Counted from the stretch's first letter, positions 2,452 to 15,968 are shown. The stretch is 16,004 bases of DNA from Planctomycetota bacterium (GCA_013816645.1 JACDEC010000017.1:1-16004), one strand, 5' to 3'. A program made the numbers and translations. The notes: generated from the sequence alone by a model not told the origin.

Positions 2452-3483
2452 ATGACGACGATGAAGGCGCTGGTCAAAGCCAAGGCCGAGCCCGGCCTGT
2501 GGATGCAGGACGTGCCGATGCCCGAGATCGGGCCCAACGACCTGTTGATCCGCATGCGCAAAACCGCGATCTGCGGCACCGACCTGCACATCTTCGCCTG
2601 GGACGAGTGGGCGCGCCGGACCATCCCGGTGCCGATGGTCACCGGCCACGAATTCGTCGGCGTCGTCGACCAGGTGGGCTCGGCGGTGCGCGGTTTCGCT
2701 CCCGGCGACCGCGTCTCGGGCGAGGGCCACATCACCTGCGGCCATTGCCGCAACTGCCGCGCGGGACGCCGCCACCTCTGCCGCAACACCCAGGGCATCG
2801 GCGTCAACCGCACCGGCTGCTTCGGCGAATACCTGTCCCTACCCGCGGGCAACGCCTTCAAGCTGCCCGACGACATCAGCGACGAATTGGCGTCGATCTT
2901 CGACCCCTACGGCAACGCCACCCACACCGCGCTGTCCTTCGACCTGGTCGGCGAGGACGTGCTGATCACCGGCGCCGGACCGATCGGCTGCATGGCGGCG
3001 GCGATCGCCCGCCACGTCGGCGCCCGCAACGTGGTGGTCACCGACATCAACGACTACCGGCTCGCCCTGGCCACGCGCATGGGCGCGACGCGCACGGTCA
3101 ACACCGCCAAGACCCCGCTCGAGCCGGTGATGCGCGAACTCGGCATGGTCGAAGGCTTCGACGTCGGCCTGGAGATGTCGGGCAACGGCCAGGCATTCAC
3201 CGGGATGCTCGCGGCGATGAACCACGGCGGCCGCATCGCCATGCTCGGCATCCTGCCCGGTCAGGTCGCGATCGATTGGAGCACGGTGATCTTCAAAGGT
3301 CTGGTCATCAAGGGCATCTACGGCCGCGAGATGTTCGAGACCTGGTACAAGATGACCGCCATGCTGCAGAGCGGCCTCGATCTCTCGGCGGTGATCACCC
3401 ACCGCCTGCCGGTCGCGCGCTACCTCGACGGCTTCGCGGCGATGCAGACCGGGCAATCGGGCAAGGTCATCCTCGACTGGTGA
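2452..3483 (+). CDS. tdh: L-threonine 3-dehydrogenase (Zn-dependent MDR family)
   Basis: 343-aa [53 protein letters not shown], Cys-rich structural-Zn motif [15 protein letters not shown], and Rossmann motif [11 protein letters not shown]. It starts 28 bp after the kbl stop. AGGA sits 5 nt upstream of ATG 2452. ATG 2461 would give the E. coli-like MKAL N-terminus. Confidence 0.95.
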
Positions 3484-3637
3484 CCGAGCTGGCGTGACCG
3501 CCGCAACGCTTGCGACGTTCCGTGGACGCCGAGCCGGGTGACGCACGCGCACGGGAGCGCCCAGGCCCCCTGCGGTCCGCCCTACGCACCCCGGCAGGAT
3601 TGGCTGCTAATTCCGGGCCTCCGCGCGGGAACAGTCC

Positions 3638-4164
3638 ATGAGCATGCCATCGAACGATCCGGTCGAGCAGATGAACCTGCTGTTCCTGCGCCATGCGCAG
3701 GCCATCCGCGGTTTCATCGTCTGCCTCGTGGCGGGCGACCAGGGCCTGGCCGACGACGTGTTCCAGGAGGTCTTCCTGGTGGTCAGCAGGCGCGCCGCGG
3801 ACTTCCGTCCCGACGGCGACTTCACTGCCTGGGTGCGCGGGATCGCCCGCAACAAGCTGCTGGCCGTGCTGCGCCAACGGCGCCGTGGTTTCGCGCTCAG
3901 CGAGGACGTCCTGGAACTGCTCGCCGCCGAAGCGCCATCGGACGACGCCTGGGACCGCCATCAACGGGCGATACGCACCTGCCTGGATGGGCTGGCGCCG
4001 CGCGCGCGCGCGAACTGGCCGATCTGCGCTTCACCGAGGAACTCAAGCCCGCGGCGATCGCCGAGCGCGTGCATTGGACGATCAACGCGGTCAACGTCGC
4101 CCTGTCGCGCGTGCGTCGCCAGCTGCGCGATTGCTGCGAATGTCGCCTGGAGACCGAACGGTGA
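3638..4164 (+). pseudogene. ECF (sigma-24 / FecI-like) RNA polymerase sigma factor, interrupted as sequenced by a frameshift inside a (CG)7 tract. Region 2 is in frame 2 (3638-~4011) and region 4 is in frame 1 (~4012-4164)
   Basis: Frame 2 gives LLFLRHAQAIRGFIVCLVAGDQGLADDVFQEVFLVVSRRAADFRPDGDFTAWVRGIARNKLLAVLRQRRR, which is sigma region 2. Frame 1 gives ELADLRFTEELKPAAIAERVHWTINAVNVALSRVRRQLRDC, which is the region 4 HTH, ending at TGA 4162-4164. The two halves join at CGCGCGCGCGCGCG (3999-4012). Removing one CG unit, or adding one base, restores a ~175-aa ECF sigma. Confidence 0.8.
3999..4012. repeat. (CG)7 dinucleotide simple-sequence repeat at the frameshift point of the ECF sigma gene
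   Basis: Direct read of ccgCGCGCGCGCGCGCGaac. The sigma reading frame changes exactly here. Confidence 0.9.
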
Positions 4165-5468
4165 CCGGCGCGCAACGTTGCGATGCGCTGCTCGACGCCT
4201 GGCTCGACCAGGGGGACGAAACAGCCGCATCCGAACTCAACGCCCTGCTGCGCAGCGACCCCTCGGCGCGTGCGCGCTACTTCAGCGCGATGCTGGTCGA
4301 TGCCGGGATCCGCGCGGCGCTCAAGGACGCGTCGACCCACGTGCGCATCGACCGCCTGCGCCAATCGGGACGACGGCGCCTGCGCCGTCAGCGCCGCAGC
4401 GATGCCGGCCGGTATGCCGCCGCCGCGATCGCCGCCACCCTGATCGCCGCCATCGGCCTGATGATCGCGTCCAGCCGCGGCCAGCGCAGCGCGACACCGG
4501 GCGAGGCGCCGACCGTCGCCGTCCGACCCATCGAATCGAGCGTCGCGGTCGGCGCTGAAGACGTCATCGCCACCCGCACCGACGCCGGTCCGCATCGGGA
4601 GATCCGAGCAGGCGAGACCATCGCCACCGGCGATACCCCGGTGAGGCTGGTCCTGATCAGCGACCGCACGCGCATCGATCTCTCGGCCGGGACCAGCGCC
4701 CGGTTCGCGCGCGAACGCCAGGGCGTGCGCGTGCACCTCGAACACGGCGGCTTGTCCGCCGAGGTCATGCCGCGCACCGCTGATCGGCCGTTCGTGGTCG
4801 AGACTCCGCACGCCAACGCCTCCGTGGTCGGCACCGCGTTCAGCGTCGCTGTCACCGGCCACAGTACGGTGTCGGTCGGGCATGGAGTCGTCGACGTCGC
4901 CTCCGGTGGAGCGAGCGCCCGCCTGTCGGCCGGCGACGTGGCGGCCTGCGCCCGGGGCGAGGCTCCCCGCGTGGCGCGGCGGGTCGACCGGGTGCTCGAG
5001 GAACTCGCCGACCCGGGCGGCTGGAACAACTGCAGTCTCGACCTGCCCCTGGTCAGCGGCGTCGGCGGACTGGTCGGTGGGCGCTCCCTCCAGATCCATT
5101 TATCCAGCGAGCGATCCTGGGCGGGCGCGATCTTCGCCCAGCGCCAGGATTTCTCGCCATACCGCGGGCTCAGCCTGACCTGCCGAGGTCAAGGCACAGG
5201 CGCGCTGTTGCTGGTCGAGGTCCTCGACAATGGGCCCCCGCGGCAGCCTGGCGAGAAGGACCAGGCTGAACGATTCTTCGCCGACCTGGTCGATGACGTC
5301 GCGGGATGGCGCGAGGTGCGCATTCCCTTCACCGCGTTCAAGCGGCGCGAATTGCAGATGCCAGGTGCGGCGAACGATGGACTGACCCTCACCGGAACCC
5401 AGGGATTGTCGATCCTGACCAGTCGGGATACCACGCTGTCGCTCGAGCGGATCGGGCTTTACAAGTGA
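4161..5468 (+). CDS. FecR-family transmembrane anti-sigma factor with an additional ~150-aa periplasmic C-terminal beta-sandwich domain (possibly CIA30/CBM11-like)
   Basis: GTG start at 4161 overlaps the sigma-factor stop (GTGA), which implies translational coupling. The N-terminus VTGAQRCDALLDAWLDQGDETAASELNALLRSDPSARARYFSAMLV is a typical anti-sigma N-domain. One TM segment YAAAAIAATLIAAIGLMIA spans 4413-4469. The FecR domain reads RIDLSAGTSARFARE...VHLEHGGLSAEV...FVVETPHANASVVGTAFSV. The C-terminal region from ~5020 reads WNNCSLDLPLVSGVGGLVGGRS...GWREVRIPFTAFK...LSLERIGLYK. Same frame as ORF-track entry 3693..5468. Confidence 0.8.
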   Translation: MTGAQRCDALLDAWLDQGDETAASELNALLRSDPSARARYFSAMLVDAGIRAALKDASTHVRIDRLRQSGRRRLRRQRRSDAGRYAAAAIAATLIAAIGLMIASSRGQRSATPGEAPTVAVRPIESSVAVGAEDVIATRTDAGPHREIRAGETIATGDTPVRLVLISDRTRIDLSAGTSARFARERQGVRVHLEHGGLSAEVMPRTADRPFVVETPHANASVVGTAFSVAVTGHSTVSVGHGVVDVASGGASARLSAGDVAACARGEAPRVARRVDRVLEELADPGGWNNCSLDLPLVSGVGGLVGGRSLQIHLSSERSWAGAIFAQRQDFSPYRGLSLTCRGQGTGALLLVEVLDNGPPRQPGEKDQAERFFADLVDDVAGWREVRIPFTAFKRRELQMPGAANDGLTLTGTQGLSILTSRDTTLSLERIGLYK

Positions 5469-5565
5469 TGCGAGCGTTGCGCCGCGAGTGATGCACCCCG
5501 GACAGCGGGCGCAGCCCACCGGCTAAGCGACACCCGAGCCGCGGGAATCGACGGCGGAGGCCGCC

Positions 5566-8307
5566 GTGCACTTAGCCCCGAGCATCGCTTTGATCTGCTG
5601 CCTGATCGCCTCGGCGCCAGCCAGCGATTACTACGTCAGCACCAGCGGGAATGACGGCAACGCCGGGACCTCCATGGCGAGCCCGTGGCAAACCATCGCC
5701 AAGGTCAACACCAGCAATTTCGTCGCCGGCGATCGCGTGTTCTTCGCGGGCGGCCAGACCTTCACCAATCCTGGCCTGATGCTCGACGCTTCGGATACCG
5801 GCTCCGCGGCGAATCCGATCGTCATCGGCAGCTACGGGACCGGACGCGCGATCATCCGGGCCACGGGCAACGTCGACGGTCTGTTCATCTACAACACCGG
5901 CGGCGTGCGGATCCAGGATCTGATCGTCGAAGGACCGGGCGTCTCCTCCAGCACCAAGAGCGGCATCATCGCCTACTGCGATCTCGCCAATGGCAGCAAG
6001 CTCACGGGTCTCGCAATCGCCAACTGCGAAGCGCGGCAGTTCCGGAACGGCATCATCATCGGCGCGTGGCATGCTTCGTTCAGCGGCTTCTCGGGCGCGC
6101 TCGTCGAGAACTGCGTCGCGCACGACAACAGCCGCTCCGGCATCAGCAGCTACGGCTACACGACGACCTCGGCCGCGGTGCAATCGCATGCCAGCCTCAC
6201 TATCCGTGGCTGCGAAACCTACCTCAATCGTGGAGACCCCCTCCATACCGCGAACCACAGCGGCAGCGGCATCGTGGTCTCCGGCACCGTCGGCGGACTG
6301 GTCGACCAATGCTACGCCCACCACAACGGCGGATCCGCCGGCAATCCAGGCGGAGGCGGACCGGTCGGCATCTGGACCTACCAGTCCGACGGGGTGGTGA
6401 TCCAACGCTGCCTGGTGCACGACCAGAAGACCACCGCAGGCGTCAAGGACGGCGGCGGCTTCGATATCGACGGCGGCGCGGTCAATGCCGTGATCCAGTA
6501 CTGCTATTCCTACAACAACGAGGGTCCGGGTTACCTGATCTGCGAATACAGCGGCGCCGACGTGCCGGTCTCCGCGGCCACGATCCGCTATTGCCTGGGC
6601 TGGAACGACGCGCGCCGCAGGGCCAACGACCAGGGCGCTGGGTTCGATTTCTACAACGGGTATGACGGCGACCCGAGCAAACTCACGGGAGTGACCATCC
6701 ACAACAACCTGGTCTACGCCGATGCGGCCGTAGCCGGTGCGTGCGTCAAATGGGAGGGAGGCCCGCTGGCCAACGTCCGCTTCGCCAACAACATCTTCGT
6801 CGTCACCGGCGGATCACGGTTCGTCGACATCGCGGCGCACACCGCCGATTTCAGCTTCGTCGACAACGCCTATTTCTCCAGCGATGCCAATTATTCCGGT
6901 GGCTGGAAATGGAGCAGCCTGACCTACACCAGCCTGGATGCATGGCGGTCGGCATCAGGCGCGCCCGAGACCTGGAGCGGGTCCCCGGTCGGCATGCAAG
7001 CCGATCCCCTGCTCGCCAACGTGGTCGGAGGTGCGCAACCGACCTCGATCGCGGCGCTTGAATCGATCACCGCCTACCGACTGCTCGCAGGCTCGCCGTG
7101 CATCGACGCCGGGCAGGACCTGAGGACCGCGGCGTTCGGCAGCCGCACGGTCGGCAGCCGGGATTTCTTCAATCAGACGATCCCCCAGGGCGGGGCGTTC
7201 GACATCGGTGCGCACGAAACCACGCCGGCGACTGCGAACACCGCGCCGACCATCAGTCCGATCGATGGCCAGGCGATCCTCGAAGATGCGCCGACCGGCG
7301 CGATCGCCGTCACCATCGGCGATGCCGAAACCGCGGCCGGTTCGCTCACGCTCGCGGCTGCATCGTCCAACCCCACCCTGGTGCCGATCGCCAACGTGGT
7401 CTTCGCCGGTTCGTTCGCCAACCGCACGGCGACCGTGACCCCAGCCGCGGACCGCAATGGCCTCGCCACCATCACGGTCACCGTCACCGATGGTGGCGGG
7501 CTGACCGCCTCGCGATCATTCACCGTCAACGTCACCGCGGTCAATGACGAGCCCTCCTTCGTCCCGGGAGCCGACCAGAATACCTACGCGGGCGCCGGGG
7601 CGCAGACCGTGGCCAGTTGGGCGACCGCAATCAGCGCTGGGCCGACCGATGAAAGCGGGCAGACCCTGACCTTCCAGGTCAGCGCCAACAGCAATCCCGG
7701 CTTGTTCGCCACCGCTCCAGCGGTGTCCCCCGCGGGGACCTTGAGCTACACGCCCGCATCCAACGCCAATGGAACCGCCACCATCTCGCTCATGCTGGTC
7801 GACAACGGCGGCACGGCGAACGGCGGCGTGCAGGCCAGTGCGATGCAAACGTTCATGATCGCCTGCTCCCCGACGCCATTGCCCAACCTGGTCGTGTCGC
7901 GCAGTTCGGTGATCATCGGCTCGGGTGGGACCGATCGGTGCAGCGCTGCGCTCGGCGCCAATACCACCATCGCCTATGTCCTCGCCAACAGTGGCCAAGC
8001 CGTGCTGTCGATCGCCACCGCGACCGTGGTGGCGCACACCGGCTGCATCGCATCAGTCAGCGCTCTGCCCGCCGCATCGGTCGTCGCTGGTACGACCACG
8101 GGAATGGGCGTCGATGTGACGCCGCAAGCGGCGAACTGGTCATTCACCATAAGCGTGACTAGCAATGATCCCGACACGCCGAGCTACGCCTGGACGATCC
8201 GCAGCAGCACTTCCACAGTAAGCACCGCCGCCAAGCCCTGCGGCATCGGCAGCGGCATCGCCCTGGTCCTCAGCGCTCTGGCGCTGACCTTCTTTCGTCG
8301 CCACTGA
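5566..8307 (+). CDS. Secreted/surface right-handed parallel beta-helix (pectin-lyase-fold, PbH1-repeat) protein with two cadherin-like/Big-type VNDEP domains and a C-terminal sorting-signal-like tail
   Basis: 913 aa. GTG start at 5566 with GGAGG at 5556-5560. N-terminus MHLAPSIALICCLIASAPA|SDYYVSTSGNDGNAGTSMASPWQTIAKV is the DUF1565-like start of beta-helix proteins. PbH1-like repeats include NNxF...GGFDIDGG...YCYSYNNEGPGYLI. C-terminus of the helix domain is CIDAGQD...GGAFDIGAHE. From 7231 to 7870 there are two ~100-aa repeats carrying VNDEPSF. The tail AAKPCGIGSGIALVLSALALTFFRRH* spans 8233-8307. Confidence 0.8.
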   Translation: MHLAPSIALICCLIASAPASDYYVSTSGNDGNAGTSMASPWQTIAKVNTSNFVAGDRVFFAGGQTFTNPGLMLDASDTGSAANPIVIGSYGTGRAIIRATGNVDGLFIYNTGGVRIQDLIVEGPGVSSSTKSGIIAYCDLANGSKLTGLAIANCEARQFRNGIIIGAWHASFSGFSGALVENCVAHDNSRSGISSYGYTTTSAAVQSHASLTIRGCETYLNRGDPLHTANHSGSGIVVSGTVGGLVDQCYAHHNGGSAGNPGGGGPVGIWTYQSDGVVIQRCLVHDQKTTAGVKDGGGFDIDGGAVNAVIQYCYSYNNEGPGYLICEYSGADVPVSAATIRYCLGWNDARRRANDQGAGFDFYNGYDGDPSKLTGVTIHNNLVYADAAVAGACVKWEGGPLANVRFANNIFVVTGGSRFVDIAAHTADFSFVDNAYFSSDANYSGGWKWSSLTYTSLDAWRSASGAPETWSGSPVGMQADPLLANVVGGAQPTSIAALESITAYRLLAGSPCIDAGQDLRTAAFGSRTVGSRDFFNQTIPQGGAFDIGAHETTPATANTAPTISPIDGQAILEDAPTGAIAVTIGDAETAAGSLTLAAASSNPTLVPIANVVFAGSFANRTATVTPAADRNGLATITVTVTDGGGLTASRSFTVNVTAVNDEPSFVPGADQNTYAGAGAQTVASWATAISAGPTDESGQTLTFQVSANSNPGLFATAPAVSPAGTLSYTPASNANGTATISLMLVDNGGTANGGVQASAMQTFMIACSPTPLPNLVVSRSSVIIGSGGTDRCSAALGANTTIAYVLANSGQAVLSIATATVVAHTGCIASVSALPAASVVAGTTTGMGVDVTPQAANWSFTISVTSNDPDTPSYAWTIRSSTSTVSTAAKPCGIGSGIALVLSALALTFFRRH

Positions 8308-8664
8308 CGACCCCATCTGCGCATGTGCACCGAGTAGTGCTCCCTTGAGCGCCTCGATCCGTGCGTGGTGAGTCAAAACCCCCCGGTCCATCACTCGACG
8401 TAAGTACCATTCCTGGCGCAGCCGAGCCTATTTTCCCTGCCTCCGCTCGCAGCAGGCGGGAGCGAGGTCCGTTCCGACATTCGCGCGAATGATCGAACGT
8501 GTGCAGTGACGCTGCTGCACCTCCGTCGGCATGAATTACCAGCCCTACGTCATGAAAAATGCATCACCGACCGTATGATAGTGCTAGTTTAATCATTTAT
8601 CCGGCGTCCTAGGCTCTCGCGCCCTATTGGTTTCGTGCAAAAAGCGAAATCTCCTGGAGTCGCC
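8308..8664. promoter_or_regulatory. Long, comparatively AT-rich 5' leader and promoter region of the large adhesin gene. Contains imperfect palindromes gtgcagtgacgctgctgcac and tgatagtgctagtttaatca, and possible -10 TATGAT
   Basis: 357 bp with no convincing ORF and far lower GC than its surroundings (for example catgaaaaatgcatcaccgaccgtatgatagtgctagtttaatcatttatcc). It lies immediately upstream of ATG 8665, which has GGAG at 8656-8659. Confidence 0.3.
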
Positions 8665-10206
8665 ATGTTTGAGCCAGTCCGCCTGACCTCATCTTTCCTG
8701 TCCAGTCGGCTGATCGGCGCGGCTGCGCTGGCATTGGCGCTGCTCTGCGCTGCACCAGCTCACGCAGCGAATGTGCGCTGGGACGGTGGCGGCGCGGATG
8801 GCCAGTGGTCGAATCCGCTGAACTGGAAAAATGACGCGGTGCCGGGTTCCGGCGACAGCGTCGCCTTTCCGGCCAATTACGTGACAGCGCCGCTGGCGGT
8901 GAATCTCAGCGCGCCGGTCACCGTCGGCGCGCTCACCCTGGCGACGTCGAGCCCAGTGAGCTTCACCGGCGCCACGATCACCGTGAACAAGCGGATCGTC
9001 GTCAACTTCGGCAGTCACAGCATCGCCAATGCGATCGACGGGAAGAATGGATCCGATCTGCTGATCATCGTCGGCACCGGCAGCTCGCTCGCGCTCAGCG
9101 GCGCCATCTCGGTCAGCAACAACAAGATCCTGGCGCTGACCCGCGACGGTGCGGTGACGATGTCCGGGGCGCTCAGCGGCACGGGCGTGCAACTGGTCGT
9201 CGGCGGGGCGGGCAGCCTCACCCTGTCTGGTGCGAGCACCTATACCGGATCGACCAGCATCAATGGAGGCACCGTGATGGTCGTGGCCAACGCGCCGGTC
9301 TTGGCCGCGGGTCCGTTCGGCGACGCCGCATCCGCCATCAACATCGGCAATATCGTCACCGCCGCCAACATCTCGATCCATGCCGCCAACGGCGTGACGA
9401 TCGGCCGTCCCGTCACGGTCTCGGCGAATGCGACCGGAAGCGTCACCGTGGGGGCAGCGAGCGGCGCAGTCAGCTTCGCGGGCGCGATCACCCTCGAGCG
9501 CGGAGCCACCCTCAGCGCACCTGCCGGTGCCACAGCGACGTTCTCGGGAGCCATCAGCGGCGCAGGCTTCGGCGTGACCAAGAGCGGTGCCGGCACCGGC
9601 GCCCTGGACAACGCGCTCAACACCTACACCGGCGCCACCACGGTGGCGGCCGGCGTGCTGCTCGCCAATGGCGCGACCCAGGCGACCGGGACGGCCGTCA
9701 GCACGGTCACCGTCGCCAGTGGCGCCACCCTGGGCGGCGCCGGTCGGATTGCCGGCACTGTCAGCGTCGCTGCAGGCGGCACCCTGGCTCCCGGCAATGC
9801 CAGCGGCATCGGCACGCTCACCGTCAATGGCGACGTCACGGTGCCGGCTGGGGCAATCCTGCGCGTGCACCTCAATGGCGCCACGCCGAGCCAATCCGGC
9901 AAGCTGGCAGTCACTGCCGGCACGGTCTCGCTCGCAGGCAACCTGGTGGTCAACCTGAGCCCGGCCTCGGTGTTCTCCACCGGGTGGACCATCCTCGACA
10001 AAGGTGCCGCAGGCGCGATCTCTGGCACCTTCGCCGGCAAGCCCGAGGGCGCCGCCTTCGCGGCGAATGGCCGCGGACTGCAGATCACGTACGTCGCGGA
10101 ACCAACAGCAACGACATCCTGCTCGCTGATATCGGACCGACCACCAACCCGGAAGTCCTCAGCCTGTCCCCCGCCTTCGGCACCACGCGCGGCGGCGACA
10201 GCGTGA
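8665..10206 (+). CDS. Large surface adhesin, N-terminal segment as sequenced: signal peptide plus autotransporter-associated beta-strand (PATR) repeat region. The reading frame breaks near 10093-10100 and continues in frame 0 (see next feature)
   Basis: ATG 8665 with GGAG 5 nt upstream. The ORF track starts at GTG 8635. Signal peptide MFEPVRLTSSFLSSRLIGAAALALALLCAAPAHA|AN. Then WDGGGADGQWSNPLNWKNDAVPGSGDSVAF, repeated LTLSGASTYTGSTSINGGTV-type PATR units, and the typical passenger end GTLTVNGDVTV...GRGLQITYV. The last ~36 codons before the stop at 10206 (AEPTATTSCSL...) are off-frame garbage. Confidence 0.75.
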   Translation: MFEPVRLTSSFLSSRLIGAAALALALLCAAPAHAANVRWDGGGADGQWSNPLNWKNDAVPGSGDSVAFPANYVTAPLAVNLSAPVTVGALTLATSSPVSFTGATITVNKRIVVNFGSHSIANAIDGKNGSDLLIIVGTGSSLALSGAISVSNNKILALTRDGAVTMSGALSGTGVQLVVGGAGSLTLSGASTYTGSTSINGGTVMVVANAPVLAAGPFGDAASAINIGNIVTAANISIHAANGVTIGRPVTVSANATGSVTVGAASGAVSFAGAITLERGATLSAPAGATATFSGAISGAGFGVTKSGAGTGALDNALNTYTGATTVAAGVLLANGATQATGTAVSTVTVASGATLGGAGRIAGTVSVAAGGTLAPGNASGIGTLTVNGDVTVPAGAILRVHLNGATPSQSGKLAVTAGTVSLAGNLVVNLSPASVFSTGWTILDKGAAGAISGTFAGKPEGAAFAANGRGLQITYVAEPTATTSCSLISDRPPTRKSSACPPPSAPRAAATA

Positions 10207-12686
10207 CCCTCACCGGCCTGCTGCTCACCGGCCCGTCCGGCGGACTGACGCCCACGGTGAGCTTCGCGGGCGTGGCCGGGGCGGTCACCGCGTCGACCCC
10301 GACCTCGGTCACGGTGACCACGCCGGACCTGTCGATCGGCGCTTCGACCCAACTGGTGGATGTCGCGTTGACCGTCAACGGCAACACCTCGACCGTGCTG
10401 CTCGGCTTCGAGTACCGGCGTCCCGTCCTGACCGTCACCGCCGCCAACGCCTCCCGCATCCATGGCACGGCGAACCCGGCTTTCGGCGTGTCCTTCGCCG
10501 GATTGGTCGCGCCGGACAGCGATCCGCTCGCGGTGGTCAGCGGCACGGTGGCATACGCCACCGCTGCGACGCCCACCTCGTCACCGAACGGCTACGCCAT
10601 CGAGCCTTCGGGCCTGACCAGCGCCGACTACGCGATCGTGTACGTCAACGGCCTGCTCACCGTCACCCAGGCACCGCCGACCATCAACTGGTCGACGCCT
10701 GCGCCGATCGCTTACACGACGGGTGGCGCGGCCCTGCCGGCCAGCGCGCTCAACGCCACGATCAGCGACGTCAATCTCGGTCTCGCGCTGACCGACCCCA
10801 CCACCGGGACGATCGCCTATACGCCGGCCTCAGGCACGCTGCTCAACGCCGGGTCCCACGCGCTCACGGTGACCTACACGCCGCTGATCGACAGCGCCTA
10901 CGACGACAACTGCCTGCAGACCAGTGGAACGGTGTACCAGATCGTCACGGCGATCCCGGTGACCATCACCTGGGCCAATCCCGCCGACATCACCTATGGC
11001 ACCGCGCTGGATGCGTCGCAGCTGAACGCCACGAGCGGGGGCGTCCCTGGCAGCTTCATCTACACGCCCGCGTCGGGCATCCGATTGTCCGCCGGCGACG
11101 CCCAGACGCTCAGCACCACCTTCACCCCCAGCGACCCCAACTACGCGACCACCACCACGACGGCCACGATCGACGTGCTGGCCAAGGCGCTGACCATCAC
11201 CGCCGATGACGCCGCCAAGGTCTACGGCGCAGCCAATCCCGATTTCGCCGCATCCTACGACGGTTTCGTCACCGGCGACGACGAGGACGATCTCGGCGGA
11301 AGCCTCGCCTTCGCCACCAGCGCCGACGCCAGCAGCGCGGTCGGCGACTACGACGTCACCCCGAGCGGGCTGACCAGCACCAACTACGTGATCGCCTTCG
11401 CCGATGGTACCCTGTCGATCACCGCCAAGGCGCTGACCATCACCGCCGATGACGCCGCCAAGGTCTACGGCGCAGCCAATCCCGATTTCGCCGCATCCTA
11501 CGACGGTTTCGTCACCGGCGACGACGAGGACGATCTCGGCGGAAGCCTCGCCTTCGCCACCAGCGCCGACGCCAGCAGCGCGGTCGGCGACTACGACGTC
11601 ACCCCGAGCGGATCGACCAGCACCAACTACGCGATCACCTTCGCCGACGGCACCCTGTCGATCACCGCCAAGGCGCTGACCATCACCACCGTCAACTCCA
11701 CCAAGGTCTACGGCGAAGCCAATCCCGATTTCGCCGCATCCTACGACGGTTTCGTCACCGGCGACGACGAGGACGACCTGGGCGGGAGCCTCGCCTTCGC
11801 CACCAGCGCCGACGCCAGCAGCGCGATCGGCGACTACGCCGTCACCCCGAGCGGGCTGACCAGCACCAACTACGCGATCACCTTCGCCGATGGCACGCTC
11901 ACGGTCGGCGCCAGGACCCTGACCGTCACGACGAACGCGTGCTCCAAGGTCTATGGCGCGGCCAACTCGGACTTCGCGGTCAGCTATACGGGATTCGCCA
12001 TCGGCGACGACGTCAGCGACCTCGGCGGCCTCCTGGCCTTCACCACCACCGCCACCGCGGCCAGCGCGGTCGGCGCCTACGACGTCACCCCGGGCGGACT
12101 GACCAGCACCACGTACGCGATCACCTTCGTGAAGGGCACGCTCACCGTGACCAAGCAGGAGCTGGTGGTGACCGCCGATCACAAGCTCGTCGCCAAGGGC
12201 GCGACCATCATCCCGGCCTCGCTGACCTGGACCGCGACCGGCTTCGTCGCCGGCGACGGCGCGGGCAGCGCCTTCAGCGGAGCGCCCGAACTCGGGACCA
12301 GCGCTGACGCCGCCACCGTCGGCTCCTATCCCATCACCATCGCCATCGGCACGCTGGCTTCGACCAACTACAGCTTCTCGCTGGTCGGGGGCACACTCGA
12401 CGTCTACGTCCTGGATGTGACCAGCATCACGGTCAGCGGCACGATCACCGGCAGCAGCGCCACGACCGCGACGATCAGCTCCGGAACCATCACCAAGACC
12501 GGATCGACCTGGTCGGCGGCGGTCCCTCTGCCCGGCGCAACGTCCAGGACAGTGACGGTGCAGGCCCACGATCGCGGCAAGCATTCCACCCTGCTGCCGA
12601 TCACCATCGACGAGGGTGATGTCCCGGTGCCGAAACCGTCCTCCAGCCTGCCGCCTGTGCCGCTGATGCCCGCGGCGAAGGGATGA
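9984..12686 (+). CDS. Large surface adhesin, C-terminal segment (frame 0): IPT/TIG domain followed by ~8 MBG/YG-type repeat domains. Genuine codons begin about 10096. ATG 9984 and the following ~37 codons are an artefact of the frameshift
   Basis: Frame 0 from ~10096 reads GTNSNDILLADIG, which completes the PATR terminal ITYxGGxxNDxxL consensus. Then PEVLSLSPAFGTTRGGDSVTLTG...VSFAGVAGAVTASTPTSVTVTTP, which is IPT/TIG. Then repeated units such as KVYGAANPDFAASYDGFVTGDDEDDLGGSLAFATSADASSAVGDYDVTPSGLTSTNYAITFADGTLSIT, which are MBG/YG-type. There is no C-terminal beta-barrel translocator domain. Confidence 0.75.
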   Translation: MDHPRQRCRRRDLWHLRRQARGRRLRGEWPRTADHVRRGTNSNDILLADIGPTTNPEVLSLSPAFGTTRGGDSVTLTGLLLTGPSGGLTPTVSFAGVAGAVTASTPTSVTVTTPDLSIGASTQLVDVALTVNGNTSTVLLGFEYRRPVLTVTAANASRIHGTANPAFGVSFAGLVAPDSDPLAVVSGTVAYATAATPTSSPNGYAIEPSGLTSADYAIVYVNGLLTVTQAPPTINWSTPAPIAYTTGGAALPASALNATISDVNLGLALTDPTTGTIAYTPASGTLLNAGSHALTVTYTPLIDSAYDDNCLQTSGTVYQIVTAIPVTITWANPADITYGTALDASQLNATSGGVPGSFIYTPASGIRLSAGDAQTLSTTFTPSDPNYATTTTTATIDVLAKALTITADDAAKVYGAANPDFAASYDGFVTGDDEDDLGGSLAFATSADASSAVGDYDVTPSGLTSTNYVIAFADGTLSITAKALTITADDAAKVYGAANPDFAASYDGFVTGDDEDDLGGSLAFATSADASSAVGDYDVTPSGSTSTNYAITFADGTLSITAKALTITTVNSTKVYGEANPDFAASYDGFVTGDDEDDLGGSLAFATSADASSAIGDYAVTPSGLTSTNYAITFADGTLTVGARTLTVTTNACSKVYGAANSDFAVSYTGFAIGDDVSDLGGLLAFTTTATAASAVGAYDVTPGGLTSTTYAITFVKGTLTVTKQELVVTADHKLVAKGATIIPASLTWTATGFVAGDGAGSAFSGAPELGTSADAATVGSYPITIAIGTLASTNYSFSLVGGTLDVYVLDVTSITVSGTITGSSATTATISSGTITKTGSTWSAAVPLPGATSRTVTVQAHDRGKHSTLLPITIDEGDVPVPKPSSSLPPVPLMPAAKG
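11181..12152 (+). repeat. Four tandem 243-bp (81-codon) MBG-domain repeat units in the adhesin gene
   Basis: Units start at 11181, 11424, 11667 and 11910, all codon-aligned. Units 1 and 2 differ at only ~8 nt. Unit 3 is ~90% identical and unit 4 more diverged. A fifth, degenerate unit follows (~12153-12395). Confidence 0.85.
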
Positions 12687-13961: not shown

Positions 13962-15968
13962 ATGACCCCGCTCATCATCACCGCCGCCATCGGCGCTTTC
14001 CTGCTGATTCTGGTCATCGCCTTGAACGCGTTCTACCGCACGGTCGAGCAGGGCCACGCCCTGATCATCAACAAGCTCGGCCACCTCGAACCGACCGTGA
14101 CCTTCACCGGCGCCATGGTCATGCCGGTGATCCACCGCGCGGAGGTCATGGACATCTCGGTCAAGACCATCGAGGTCGACCGCAACGGCGCCAACGGGCT
14201 GATCTGCAAGGACAACATCCGCGCCGACATCAAGGTCACCTTCTTCGTGCGCGTCAACAAGACGCGCGAGGACGTGGTCAAGGTCGCCGGATCAGTCGGC
14301 GTGGCGCGGGCCAGCGACACCGAGACCCTGGCCGAACTGTTCGAAGCCAAGTTTTCCGAAGCGCTCAAGACTGTGGGCAAGCGCATGGAGTTCATCGACC
14401 TCTACAACCAGCGCGACACCTTCAAGGACGAGATCGTCAAGGTCATCGGCCGCGACCTCAGCGGCTACAACCTCGAGGACGCGGCGATCGACTACCTCGA
14501 GCAGACCCCGCTCAAGATGCTCGATCCCGACAACATCCTCGATAGCGAGGGCCGCAAGAAGATCATCGACCTGACCAGCACCCAGCGGGTCATGGCCAAC
14601 GAGATCCAGCGCGAGGCCGAGAAGACCATCAAGAAGCAGGACGTCGAAGCCAAGGAGGCGATGCTCTCGCTGGAGCGCCAGCAGGCCGAGGCCGAGGCGC
14701 GCCAGGGTCGCGAGATCGCCACCACCCGCGCCCGCGAGACCGCCGAGCAGCACAAGGTCGAGGCCGAACAGCGCCAGCTGTCGGAGGGCGCGCGCATCGC
14801 CTCCGAGCAGGAGATCGGCATCGCCCGCGAGAACGCCCAGCGCGAGGTCCAGGTCGCTGAGAAGAACCGCGAGGGCGCGGTCGCCGTCGAGTACGAGCGC
14901 GTCGAGAAGGCCCGCCAGCTCGAAGCGATCAACCGCGAGCGCGCGGTCGAGATCAGCGGCATCGAGAAGGAGAAGATCATCGCCATCGAGCGCAAGAACA
15001 TCGCCGAGGTGATCCGCGAGCGCGTCTCGGTCGAGAAGGCCGTGGCCGAGGAAGAGGAGCTGACCAAGAACCTGCGCGCCTTCATGGAGGCCGACCGCCA
15101 CAAGAAGGTCACGGTGGCCCACGCCGAGGCCGCGGCCGAGCAGGTGCGCATCAAGGAGGTCACCGCCGCGATCGGGTCCGAGCAGGCCGCCGGCCACCTC
15201 GCCAAGGAACGCATGATCACCGCCGATGCCGACCTCAACGCCGCCGAGAAGGACGCGCTGGCGCGCACCCGCCGGGCCGAGGGCATGCAGGCCGAGACCG
15301 CGGCGCCGGGCCTGGCCCACGCGCGGGTGATGGAGGCCGAGGCCGAGGCCCGCCGCAAGCAGGGCCTGGCCGAAGTCCACGTGCAGGAGGCGTCGGCCAA
15401 GGCGATCGAGCTGGTCGGCCAGGCCGAAGCCGGTGCGACCGAGGTCAAGATGCTCGCCGAGGCCAAGGGCCTGGCCGAGAAGGCGGTGTCGATGTCCAAG
15501 CTCACCGCCGAGACCAAGGCGCACGAGGAGTTCCGCCTGCGCCTCGAGAAGGAGTTCGAGCTGGCGCGCGAGCGCATCGCCGGCCAGGTCAAGGTCTCGG
15601 AGCAGAACGCCGTGGTGCTCGGCCAGGCGCTGTCCAAGGCGAAGTTCGACATCGTCGGCGGCGACGGCGAGTTCTTCGAGCGCTTCGTCAAGGCGGTGTC
15701 GGTCGGCAAGGGCCTCGACGCCACCGTGCAGCACAGCGAAACGCTCAAGATCCTGGGCAAGGACTACCTGAGCGGCGAGCAGAGCCTGCCCGGAGACGTG
15801 AAGGACGTGCTGCTCAACACCAGCATGGGCAGCGGCGACGTGAAGAACCTCACGGTCAGCGCGATGCTCTCGCGGATGATGGCCGGCAAGGATCCGGTCA
15901 AGGTCGACGCGCTGCTCGCCAAGGCGCGCGAGCTCGGGTTCGTCGACCATCCGAGCAAGGTCAACTGA
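13962..15968 (+). CDS. Flotillin-family SPFH/band-7 protein (YqiK-like) with an extended Glu/Ala-rich coiled-coil region
   Basis: 668 aa. GGAG sits 5 nt upstream of ATG 13962. N-terminal TM segment LIITAAIGAFLLILVIALNAF. The SPFH core reads QGHALIINKLGHLEP...MPVIHRAEVMDISVKTIEV...NIRADIKVTFFVRV. A long EA-repeat coiled coil (EAEARQGREIATTRARETAEQHKVEAEQRQ...) and a flotillin-type C-terminus follow. Confidence 0.9.
   Translation: MTPLIITAAIGAFLLILVIALNAFYRTVEQGHALIINKLGHLEPTVTFTGAMVMPVIHRAEVMDISVKTIEVDRNGANGLICKDNIRADIKVTFFVRVNKTREDVVKVAGSVGVARASDTETLAELFEAKFSEALKTVGKRMEFIDLYNQRDTFKDEIVKVIGRDLSGYNLEDAAIDYLEQTPLKMLDPDNILDSEGRKKIIDLTSTQRVMANEIQREAEKTIKKQDVEAKEAMLSLERQQAEAEARQGREIATTRARETAEQHKVEAEQRQLSEGARIASEQEIGIARENAQREVQVAEKNREGAVAVEYERVEKARQLEAINRERAVEISGIEKEKIIAIERKNIAEVIRERVSVEKAVAEEEELTKNLRAFMEADRHKKVTVAHAEAAAEQVRIKEVTAAIGSEQAAGHLAKERMITADADLNAAEKDALARTRRAEGMQAETAAPGLAHARVMEAEAEARRKQGLAEVHVQEASAKAIELVGQAEAGATEVKMLAEAKGLAEKAVSMSKLTAETKAHEEFRLRLEKEFELARERIAGQVKVSEQNAVVLGQALSKAKFDIVGGDGEFFERFVKAVSVGKGLDATVQHSETLKILGKDYLSGEQSLPGDVKDVLLNTSMGSGDVKNLTVSAMLSRMMAGKDPVKVDALLAKARELGFVDHPSKVN

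What the first reader, a model, noticed from the sequence alone, without database searches (positions are those of the whole stretch)
5020..5468. Anti-sigma factor carries an extra C-terminal periplasmic domain resembling the CIA30 / CBM11-type beta-sandwich
After the FecR domain there are ~150 further residues. LPLVSGVGGLVGGRS, YRGLSLTCRGQGTGALLLVEVLD and GWREVRIPFTAFK...LSLERIGLYK recall the conserved blocks of the CIA30/CBM11 carbohydrate-binding-like family (vnD-VMGG-S, rG-G--y-l, W--v-iPF--F). If correct, this anti-sigma would bind a glycan ligand directly. That would be an unusual input for FecR-type cell-surface signalling, which normally receives its signal from a TonB-dependent transducer
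Basis: inference. Interest (0 to 1): 0.7.

Follow-up and report, generated by a model that had tools for sequence, protein, structure and literature searches.

The report
FecR anti-sigma factor with CBM11 sensor
A membrane regulator from an uncultured planctomycete has lost the end domain that normally listens to an outer-membrane transporter and carries a sugar-binding-type module instead, next to a likely sugar-cleaving enzyme, which suggests it senses a carbohydrate directly.

Summary

The CBM11 sits where canonical FecR, FoxR and PupR carry the STN-like subdomain that contacts a TonB-dependent transducer. No such transducer is encoded in the window or in seven related loci. The FecR beta-solenoid and its Gly-Thr self-cleavage site (G224-T225, aligned to FecR G181-T182) are kept.

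About 20 metagenomic protein clusters share this architecture. The gene order is ECF sigma, then FecR-CBM11, then a secreted beta-helix protein. It recurs in 7 of the 8 distinct loci that extend far enough downstream. The beta-helix protein is GH136-like and keeps the catalytic Asp pair.

Best reading: a transducer-independent, direct periplasmic glycan sensor, functionally parallel to clostridial RsgI.

Caveats:
- The CtCBM11 ligand tyrosines are not conserved.
- No binding data exist.
- The sigma gene here is frameshifted.

The parts
3638..4164 (+). ECF sigma factor gene (TIGR02989, Rhodopirellula/Verrucomicrobium family). It is interrupted by a +2 (GC) frameshift in a (GC)n tract at ~3999-4012.
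   Evidence: The product reads across two frames. After removing one GC unit it has Sigma70_r2 plus r4_2, scores 126.8 bits against TIGR02989 (cut-off 124.55), and aligns colinearly with the orthologous sigmas of L001 and L004 ('LAPRAREL').
4161..5468 (+). Anti-sigma factor gene, 435 aa plus stop. The GTG start overlaps the sigma stop codon.
   Evidence: NCBI annotates only a 335-aa version (P0001), but homologues align from residue 1.
4161..4400 (+). Cytoplasmic N-terminal helical domain (aa 1-~80), the presumed sigma-binding anti-sigma domain.
   Evidence: AlphaFold predicts helices 3-17, 20-32 and 34-79 with pLDDT 86-97 over residues 1-50 and 54-84 over 51-90. There is a weak profile match to RsiW (E=0.41). 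Function is inferred from position and operon context.
4410..4475 (+). Single transmembrane helix (aa ~84-105, YAAAAIAATLIAAIGLMIASS).
   Evidence: A hydrophobic stretch visible in the sequence, predicted as helix 85-105.
4563..4976 (+). Periplasmic FecR beta-solenoid subdomain (aa ~135-272).
4830..4835 (+). Gly224-Thr225, the candidate N-O acyl self-cleavage site.
   Evidence: Invariant in all 19 family members. It aligns to E. coli FecR G181-T182, the published self-cleavage bond (PMC9249621; FoxR G191-T192 in PMC11637429).
4974..5465 (+). C-terminal CBM11 beta-sandwich module (aa ~272-435). It occupies the place of the STN-like subdomain.
5566..8307 (+). Secreted right-handed beta-helix protein, GH136-like, with Cadherin-like/Big_9 domains and a C-terminal hydrophobic anchor. 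It is the conserved third gene of the module. The candidate catalytic residues are Asp295 and Asp302 (nt 6448-6450 and 6469-6471).
   Evidence: Pfam Beta_helix, Cadherin_5 and Big_9. Orthologues (29-61% identical) lie directly downstream of the FecR-CBM11 gene in L002, L004/L008, L005/L006, L007, L011 and L012. The family profile hits GH136 lacto-N-biosidases at E=2e-29 to 1.5e-14. D295 and D302 are invariant and align with the Asp pair spaced 7 residues apart, which is D568/D575 in ErLnb136 (PMC7335108).
3606..3611 (+). GCTAAT hexamer 27 nt upstream of the sigma start codon. This is a weak promoter or leader candidate.
   Evidence: GCTAAG sits at the equivalent place upstream of the sigma genes of L001 and L004. 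Statistical support is weak.
5522..5527 (+). GCTAAG hexamer 39 nt upstream of the beta-helix start codon. Also a weak candidate.
   Evidence: The same hexamer lies in the anti-sigma/beta-helix spacer of L004 and L012. Window-wide there are 6 matches against 2.35 expected.

Best explanation
This is a three-gene regulatory module of uncultured Planctomycetota: an ECF sigma factor, a FecR-type anti-sigma factor, and a secreted GH136-like beta-helix glycosidase. In the anti-sigma factor, the C-terminal STN-like subdomain has been replaced by a CBM11 module. In canonical systems that subdomain docks onto a TonB-dependent transducer.

Proposed mechanism:
1. The N-terminal helical domain holds the sigma factor at the inner membrane.
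2. In the periplasm, the FecR beta-solenoid (probably self-cleaved at G224-T225) carries the CBM11.
3. A glycan or oligosaccharide that reaches the periplasm binds the CBM11 cleft.
4. Binding changes the stability or protease accessibility of the periplasmic part.
5. Regulated proteolysis follows (a site-1 protease, then RseP-type cleavage) and releases the sigma factor.
6. The sigma factor transcribes its own operon, including the adjacent beta-helix enzyme.

Shown here: the domain identities, the replacement of the STN subdomain, the alignment of the GT site, the absence of a transducer gene, and the conserved gene order.

Inferred: sigma binding, glycan binding, the proteolytic cascade, and the regulon.
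For: - The closest relatives of the module are CBM11 copies on GH16, GH3, GH9, GH92 and S8 enzymes.
- The FecR part matches PupR and BDI_1681 only over the beta-solenoid, and no FecR_C/PF16344 hit was found. The STN subdomain is the part of FoxR that binds the transducer (PMC11637429).
- The G224-T225 pair is invariant and aligned to FecR G181-T182.
- The sigma / FecR-CBM11 / beta-helix order is seen in the window plus L002, L004/L008, L005/L006, L007, L011 and L012/L013. That is 7 of the 8 distinct loci that reach far enough downstream.
- The beta-helix family hits GH136 at E=2e-29 and keeps an invariant Asp pair.
- Neighbouring genes in related loci include GH78 rhamnosidase, ASD1, BNR and SASA carbohydrate-active genes.
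- Planctomycetes can accumulate extracellular macromolecules in the periplasm (PMC5394234).
- There is a functional precedent. RsgI anti-sigma factors carry C-terminal CBMs that sense polysaccharides (PMC10328401, PMC6852018).
Against: - No binding or expression data exist.
- As I recall them (own knowledge), the three tyrosines central to ligand binding in CtCBM11 map in the window protein to a gap or Cys291, to Ser319 and to Leu398. Enzyme-borne relatives keep aromatics at positions 22 and 129, but only 8 of 20 FecR-type members do so at position 129.
- The window protein also deviates at otherwise near-invariant positions: F331 where W is usual, and A404 where P is usual.
- The sigma gene in this contig is frameshifted, so the circuit may be dead in this organism if that is not an assembly error.
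- One related locus (L003) lacks the beta-helix gene.
- The conserved neighbour could be a binding partner rather than a regulatory target.
Confidence: 0.55

Rival explanations
1. The CBM11-fold domain is a protein-protein interaction module rather than a glycan sensor. It docks onto the co-encoded beta-helix protein or another envelope protein, which would play the role that the transducer's signalling domain plays in canonical systems. Partner binding would protect the anti-sigma factor from proteolysis, and substrate engagement by the partner would release it.
For: - Synteny with the beta-helix gene is tight and conserved.
- The CtCBM11 ligand tyrosine positions are not aromatic in the window protein.
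- In the current FoxR model, the C-terminal domain works through a protective protein-protein contact (PMC11637429).
Against: - The FecR-type modules keep the polar core shared with enzyme-borne CBM11s: E370, R371, D378, R395, D406 and G407. They also keep R396 in 18 of 20 members, which corresponds to cleft residue R126 of CtCBM11.
- The nearest sequence relatives are all on carbohydrate-active enzymes.
- L003 has the anti-sigma factor without the beta-helix neighbour.
Confidence: 0.2
2. The module senses the cell's own envelope glycan, such as peptidoglycan or a surface polysaccharide. It would then be an envelope-integrity sensor rather than a nutrient sensor, comparable to B. subtilis RsgI sensing cell-wall defects.
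For: - ECF systems are typically envelope-stress systems.
- B. subtilis RsgI senses gaps in peptidoglycan (PMC9732909, abstract seen).
- The downstream protein has adhesin-like Ig/cadherin domains and a C-terminal anchor.
Against: - The conserved partner has a GH136-like catalytic Asp pair.
- Related loci sit among catabolic glycosidase genes. This fits nutrient glycan use better than envelope repair.
Confidence: 0.12
3. In this particular organism the locus is a decaying, non-functional remnant. The frameshifted sigma gene means that the CBM11 fusion no longer signals.
For: - The frameshift falls inside sigma region 4.
- Several near-invariant CBM11 positions are substituted only in the window protein.
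- There is a 20-nt insertion at the 3' end of the anti-sigma gene relative to orthologues.
Against: - The anti-sigma ORF and the beta-helix ORF are both intact and full length.
- The contig has a second frame break in an unrelated repeat-protein gene, and the sigma shift lies in a (GC)n run. This pattern points to assembly or sequencing indels.
- Orthologous loci are intact.
Confidence: 0.1

Closest known systems
[quoted passage not shown]
   Same: - An ECF sigma gene lies immediately upstream with overlapping stop and start codons.
- The Gly-Thr pair aligns to the FecR G181-T182 self-cleavage bond.
   Different: - The C-terminal STN-like subdomain (PF16344), which binds the transducer's signalling domain, is absent and replaced by a CBM11.
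- No TonB-dependent transducer gene lies in the window or in the related loci.
- The sigma factor belongs to the PVC-specific TIGR02989 family rather than the FecI clade.
- The linked gene is a beta-helix glycosidase-like protein, not an outer-membrane receptor.
RsgI/SigI polysaccharide biosensors of Clostridium thermocellum and relatives
   Same: - It is a membrane anti-sigma factor whose extracytoplasmic C-terminus is a carbohydrate-binding module.
- It controls glycan-degrading enzyme genes.
- A juxtamembrane extracytoplasmic domain autoproteolyses (PMC10328401).
   Different: - The proteins are unrelated. RsgI has an RsgI_N domain and an Asn-Pro cleaving domain and pairs with SigI, which is not an ECF sigma factor.
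- RsgI is Gram-positive and exposed at the cell surface.
- Its sensor modules are CBM3, CBM42, PA14 or GH10, not CBM11.
- The resemblance would therefore be convergent.
CtCBM11 of C. thermocellum Lic26A-Cel5E (PDB 1v0a, 6r31)
   Same: - It belongs to the same Pfam family and has the same beta-sandwich fold (rmsd 2.1 Å over 144 residues).
- It shares the conserved core: DW, E-R/H, W, P-F, R-R and D-G.
   Different: - Identity is only 15-17%.
- The ligand tyrosines Y22, Y53 and Y129 are not conserved.
- The module is attached to a signalling protein rather than to a glycoside hydrolase.
- CtCBM11's specificity for beta-1,4 and beta-1,3-1,4 glucans (PMC8612152) cannot be transferred.
Bacteroides PUL-linked ECF sigma / anti-sigma / SusC-like transducer systems
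   Same: A FecR-type anti-sigma factor is used to regulate glycan-degrading genes in response to glycans.
   Different: In those systems the glycan signal is relayed by a SusC-like TonB-dependent transducer with an N-terminal signalling extension (own knowledge). Here there is no transducer, and the glycan-binding fold is part of the anti-sigma factor itself.

Membership tests
CBM11 (Pfam PF03425 / CAZy family 11 carbohydrate-binding modules) | Match to the family HMM above the curated gathering score | tested here: met
   33.3 bits for the isolated domain and 30.3-30.4 for the full protein, against a cut-off of 27. 18 of 19 same-architecture homologues match, best E=2.1e-21. The family profile hits CtCBM11 at E=5e-22.
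CBM11 (Pfam PF03425 / CAZy family 11 carbohydrate-binding modules) | Beta-sandwich fold superposable on the solved CtCBM11 structure | tested here: met
CBM11 (Pfam PF03425 / CAZy family 11 carbohydrate-binding modules) | Aromatic ligand-platform residues of the cleft (CtCBM11 Tyr22, Tyr53, Tyr129; residue roles from own knowledge of Carvalho et al. 2004) | tested here: not met
   An HMM-guided alignment maps them to a gap or Cys291, to Ser319 and to Leu398 in the window protein. Enzyme-borne relatives keep an aromatic at position 22 (16 of 16 with a residue there) and at position 129 (25 of 33). FecR-type members keep it at position 129 in 8 of 20.
CBM11 (Pfam PF03425 / CAZy family 11 carbohydrate-binding modules) | Demonstrated carbohydrate binding | not testable with these tools
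   This needs the purified module and glycan arrays, ITC or affinity electrophoresis.
CBM11 (Pfam PF03425 / CAZy family 11 carbohydrate-binding modules) | Module is part of a carbohydrate-active enzyme (the CAZy definition of a CBM) | tested here: not met
   The host protein is an anti-sigma factor with no catalytic domain. The closest sequence relatives are on GH16, GH3, GH9 and GH92 enzymes.
CIA30 (Pfam PF08547) | Match to the family HMM above the gathering score | tested here: not met
FecR-type cell-surface-signalling anti-sigma factor | Periplasmic FecR beta-solenoid domain (PF04773) | tested here: met
FecR-type cell-surface-signalling anti-sigma factor | Conserved Gly-Thr self-cleavage site within the beta-solenoid | tested here: met
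   G224-T225 is invariant in 19 of 19 members and aligns with E. coli FecR G181-T182. Cleavage itself is not testable here.
FecR-type cell-surface-signalling anti-sigma factor | C-terminal STN-like subdomain (FecR_C, PF16344) that binds the transducer signalling domain | tested here: not met
   No PF16344 hit at E<=10. PupR and BDI_1681 align only over ~128-138 of their ~213 residues. The position is occupied by the CBM11.
FecR-type cell-surface-signalling anti-sigma factor | Cognate TonB-dependent transducer encoded in the locus | tested here: not met
   No Plug, TonB_dep_Rec or STN hit among the window ORFs or among the called genes of loci L001-L007 and L011-L013. A transducer encoded elsewhere in the genome cannot be excluded.
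FecR-type cell-surface-signalling anti-sigma factor | N-terminal cytoplasmic anti-sigma domain and single TM helix, co-transcribed with an ECF sigma factor | tested here: inconclusive
   A three-helix N-terminus and a TM helix at 85-105 are predicted with good confidence. An ECF sigma gene lies directly upstream in every locus. But there is no DUF4880 hit, and the only anti-sigma match is a weak one to RsiW (E=0.41). Binding was not tested.
RsgI/SigI polysaccharide sensors | RsgI N-terminal domain paired with a SigI-type sigma factor | tested here: not met
   Pfam finds only FecR and CBM_11 in the anti-sigma factor. The sigma factor is an ECF of family TIGR02989. The similarity is functional and architectural only.
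GH136 (for the downstream beta-helix gene 5566..8307) | Beta-helix catalytic domain homologous to LnbX, with acid/base and nucleophile Asp residues 7 apart | tested here: met
   The family profile hits 7v6m, 7v6i, 5gqc, 24mr and 6kqs at E=2e-29 to 1.5e-14 in two stretches. D295 and D302 are invariant in 8 of 8 members and align to the DG..D.D motif of LnbX. D568 and D575 are the catalytic pair in ErLnb136 (PMC7335108).
GH136 (for the downstream beta-helix gene 5566..8307) | Obligatory LnbY-like helical partner subunit or domain | not tested
   No candidate was noticed next to the gene, but no dedicated search was made. The middle of the beta-helix (profile positions ~100-250) did not align to GH136, so at most it is a distant relative.

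The most novel reading that the evidence does not exclude
FecR-type signalling has been rewired in Planctomycetota into a transducer-independent, one-component periplasmic glycan receptor. A CBM11 fused to the self-cleaving FecR beta-solenoid reads polysaccharide taken into the enlarged planctomycetal periplasm and switches on a previously undescribed GH136-like beta-helix glycosidase. This would be a Gram-negative counterpart of clostridial RsgI biosensors that evolved independently. The other FecR-X proteins with unassigned C-termini in the same genomes would then be a whole repertoire of such direct sensors.
Probability: 0.4. Interest if true: 0.65.

Novelty: new variant of a known kind. 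Interest (0 to 1): 0.5.

Why it matters
FecR-type cell-surface signalling is understood as a three-protein relay in which the anti-sigma factor is blind and the TonB-dependent transducer sees the ligand. Here the transducer-docking subdomain has been swapped for a ligand-binding fold. That swap would show that the FecR beta-solenoid and Gly-Thr module is a portable signalling cassette able to accept a direct sensor.

It also offers three practical things:
- a testable handle on how the many orphan ECF/FecR pairs of Planctomycetota and Verrucomicrobiota perceive signals;
- a candidate regulator and enzyme pair for an unknown glycan;
- a natural experiment for comparing FecR-type and RsgI-type proteolytic signalling.

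The practical value is moderate. The architecture is already picked up by automatic annotation, and the family is small and known only from metagenomes.

Tried and rejected
- The word-indexed homologue searches were nearly useless for this low-complexity, high-GC protein. The full-length query found only itself, the isolated domain found nothing, and the profile found 15 hits, mostly other FecR architectures. The exhaustive representative search was what revealed the family.
- Single-sequence AlphaFold gave a meaningless model with pLDDT 42. Only the model built with an alignment was used.
- The search for related loci failed with the diverse alignment. With a narrower alignment it returned only 2 loci, one of which duplicates L004.
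- The afdb50 fold library was unavailable, so taxonomic spread among UniProt proteins was not assessed.
- CIA30 membership was rejected because it scores below its cut-off.
- The standard FecR C-terminal domain was rejected.
- A promoter motif shared by the sigma and beta-helix genes was looked for. Only a GCTAAG/T hexamer recurs, with weak statistics. No consistent -35 partner was found, and sigma-70-type scans gave nothing relevant.
- Minus-strand ORFs overlapping 5020-5468 (for example 5100..5519) were treated as the usual spurious ORFs of high-GC DNA. No homology support for them was sought.

Full report
**What is at the coordinates.** The window is a 16,004-bp contig of a 'Planctomycetes bacterium' MAG. 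The + strand carries an ECF sigma gene (3638..4164) followed by an anti-sigma gene. The best start for the anti-sigma gene is GTG 4161, which overlaps the sigma stop codon as GTGA, and the gene ends at 5468 (435 aa). NCBI annotates only the last 335 residues (P0001), but 18 homologues align from residue 1. The longer form, with an N-terminal helical domain and a TM helix, is therefore the real protein.

**Identity of the C-terminal domain.**
- Pfam finds FecR (47.6 bits) at residues 153-244. It finds CBM_11 at 33.3 bits for the isolated C-terminus and 30.3 bits in the full-length protein, against a cut-off of 27. CBM30 and CIA30 fall below their cut-offs.
- An exhaustive phmmer search of 1.84 billion representatives with the last 167 residues gave 310 hits at E<=1e-3 and 113 at E<=1e-10.
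- Sampled top hits are multi-copy CBM_11 proteins attached to GH16, GH3, GH9 and GH92 glycosidases, S8 peptidases and Calx-beta domains.
- A 53-row alignment (A3) used as a profile hits C. thermocellum CBM11 (1v0a, 2lro, 6r31, 6r3m) at E=5e-22 over residues 7-169.
- AlphaFold with that alignment gives mean pLDDT 88.4, with block means of 89-98 (mostly >90) across the C-terminal domain. The single-sequence model was useless.
- Foldseek against the PDB gives CtCBM11 at TM 0.70-0.71.

The domain is therefore a CBM11-family module. 'CIA30' is right only at fold level.

**What it replaces.** In FoxR and PupR the periplasmic part has two pieces. The first is a beta-solenoid. The second is a C-terminal STN-like subdomain, and only that subdomain binds the signalling domain of the TonB-dependent transducer (PMC11637429).

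In the window protein, PupR (6ovk/6ovm) and BDI_1681 (4m0n/4m0h) match only over their first ~128-138 residues. There is no FecR_C/PF16344 hit. In an alignment with E. coli FecR, the CBM11 begins where FecR's STN-like tail begins.

The beta-solenoid keeps an invariant Gly-Thr pair (G224-T225; 19 of 19 members). It aligns exactly with FecR G181-T182, the published non-enzymatic self-cleavage bond (PMC9249621; FoxR G191-T192, PMC11637429).

No TonB-dependent receptor, Plug or STN domain is encoded in the window or in any related locus.

**A family and a conserved module.**
- Of the 150 best representatives, 21 (including the window's own protein) combine the N-terminal/FecR part with a single C-terminal CBM11.
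- 18 of 19 in alignment A1 hit both Pfam families.
- All of them come from metagenomes or MAGs, in clusters of 1-2 sequences. One is named by NCBI 'carbohydrate binding domain-containing protein [Planctomycetota bacterium]'. One lies in a MAG labelled Brocadiaceae.
- In every locus an ECF sigma gene sits immediately upstream. The repaired window sigma factor and its orthologue belong to TIGR02989, the Rhodopirellula/Verrucomicrobium family.

Immediately downstream of the anti-sigma gene lies a secreted right-handed beta-helix protein. This holds in the window, L002, L004 (the same organism as L008), L005/L006, L007 (two paralogues), L011 and L012/L013. These proteins are 29-61% identical to window 5566..8307. 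L003 is the exception.

A profile of eight of these beta-helix proteins hits GH136 lacto-N-biosidases at E=2e-29 to 1.5e-14. The invariant D295 and D302 align with the Asp pair spaced seven residues apart. In ErLnb136 that pair is the acid/base D568 and the nucleophile D575 (PMC7335108).

Neighbouring genes in related loci include GH78 rhamnosidase, ASD1, BNR-repeat proteins, SASA esterase and LacI/GntR-type regulators.

**Mechanism proposed.**
1. The cytoplasmic helices (aa 1-~80) sequester the sigma factor (inferred).
2. The TM helix (84-105) and a disordered linker (106-131, pLDDT <50) lead to the FecR beta-solenoid, which is probably self-cleaved at G224/T225 (inferred from alignment).
3. 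The CBM11 binds a glycan that has entered the periplasm (inferred). Planctomycetes can accumulate extracellular macromolecules in the periplasm (PMC5394234).
4. Ligand binding alters the protease sensitivity of the periplasmic part, which triggers site-1 and then RseP-type cleavage and releases the sigma factor. This follows the FoxR/FecR scheme (PMC11637429, PMC9249621).
5. The sigma factor then transcribes its own operon and the GH136-like gene.

Short spacers of 22-108 nt in most loci are compatible with co-transcription.

The closest functional precedent is the unrelated RsgI/SigI system, whose anti-sigma factors carry CBM3, CBM42, PA14 or GH10 sensors (PMC10328401). No paper in the searchable library mentions both FecR and CBM11.

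**Caveats.**
- The ligand is unknown. The residue roles in CtCBM11 are from my own recollection. On that basis, Y22, Y53 and Y129 of CtCBM11 map to a gap or Cys291, to Ser319 and to Leu398. Enzyme-borne relatives keep aromatics at positions 22 and 129, and only 8 of 20 FecR-type members do so at position 129.
- The FecR-type modules do keep the family-wide polar core, and they keep R396 (CtCBM11 R126) in 18 of 20 members.
- The window protein itself is somewhat aberrant, with F331 where W is usual and A404 where P is usual.
- The sigma gene is frameshifted by an extra GC in a (GC)n run, compared with the orthologues.
- A second frame break in an unrelated repeat-protein gene suggests assembly indels, but real decay cannot be excluded.
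- The conserved beta-helix neighbour could be a binding partner rather than, or as well as, a regulatory target.

**Verdict.** The domain assignment is supported, as CBM11 and not CIA30.

Direct glycan sensing is the best-supported mechanism, at about 0.55, but it is untested. The finding is a new variant of a known kind. The parts are known and automatic annotation already flags them, but the combination, its conserved pairing with a GH136-like enzyme, and its implication of transducer-independent FecR signalling do not appear in the literature searched.

Noticed in passing
window 3990-4020 (sigma gene 3638..4164): The ECF sigma gene is split between two reading frames by an extra GC unit in a (GC)n run. 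The window reads CCG CGC GCG CGC GCG AAC, where the orthologues read ...CGC GCG CGC GAA CTx. Removing one GC restores a full TIGR02989 sigma factor.
   Followed up: partly
window ~9984-10206 (ORFs 8635..10206 and 9984..12686): Two long ORFs overlap in different frames and look like one large surface protein broken by a second frameshift. One has PATR autotransporter-type repeats. The other has TIG plus six MBG_2 domains. This suggests that the contig carries assembly indels.
   Followed up: no
window 4161-4463: The public annotation of the anti-sigma factor (P0001, 335 aa) starts at an internal Met. It omits the N-terminal sigma-binding helices and most of the TM helix. Homologue alignment supports the GTG 4161 start.
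   Followed up: yes
window 5566-8307: The downstream beta-helix protein is a distant GH136 (lacto-N-biosidase) relative with an invariant Asp295/Asp302 pair, Cadherin-like/Big_9 domains and a C-terminal hydrophobic anchor ending in RRH. No LnbY-like partner was noticed nearby.
   Followed up: partly
window 3606-3611 and 5522-5527; L001 1605; L004 4707 and 6535; L012 spacer 8168-8242: A GCTAAG/T hexamer lies roughly 27-45 nt upstream of both the sigma and the beta-helix start codons in three orthologous loci. It may be part of a shared ECF promoter. Window-wide enrichment is weak (6 found, 2.35 expected).
   Followed up: partly
window 5466-5500: Compared with the orthologues, the anti-sigma gene has a ~20-nt insertion at its very 3' end. 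The ancestral 'CGCGAGTGA' (…RE-stop) lies 20 nt downstream of the present stop codon, so the protein ends in LYK instead of LYRE.
   Followed up: no
proteins P0008, P0009, P0013, P0016 and others (hits): In many long multi-CBM11 proteins, one CBM11 copy is split by a ~240-residue insertion between model positions ~92 and ~96. In P0008 the inserted part is a GH16 domain, so a catalytic domain is nested inside a CBM11.
   Followed up: no
L002 6834-8908 and L011 11450-13572: The same genomes carry further ECF sigma / FecR-X pairs next to other secreted enzymes, for example an Sde182_NH-like protein. Their anti-sigma factors have 270-300 C-terminal residues with no Pfam match. These may be further direct-sensor variants.
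   Followed up: partly
window 13962-15968 and 2452-3483: The flanking genes appear unrelated to the module. They are an SPFH/Band 7 (flotillin-like) protein of 668 aa and a zinc-type alcohol dehydrogenase. They are not conserved next to the module in other loci.
   Followed up: no
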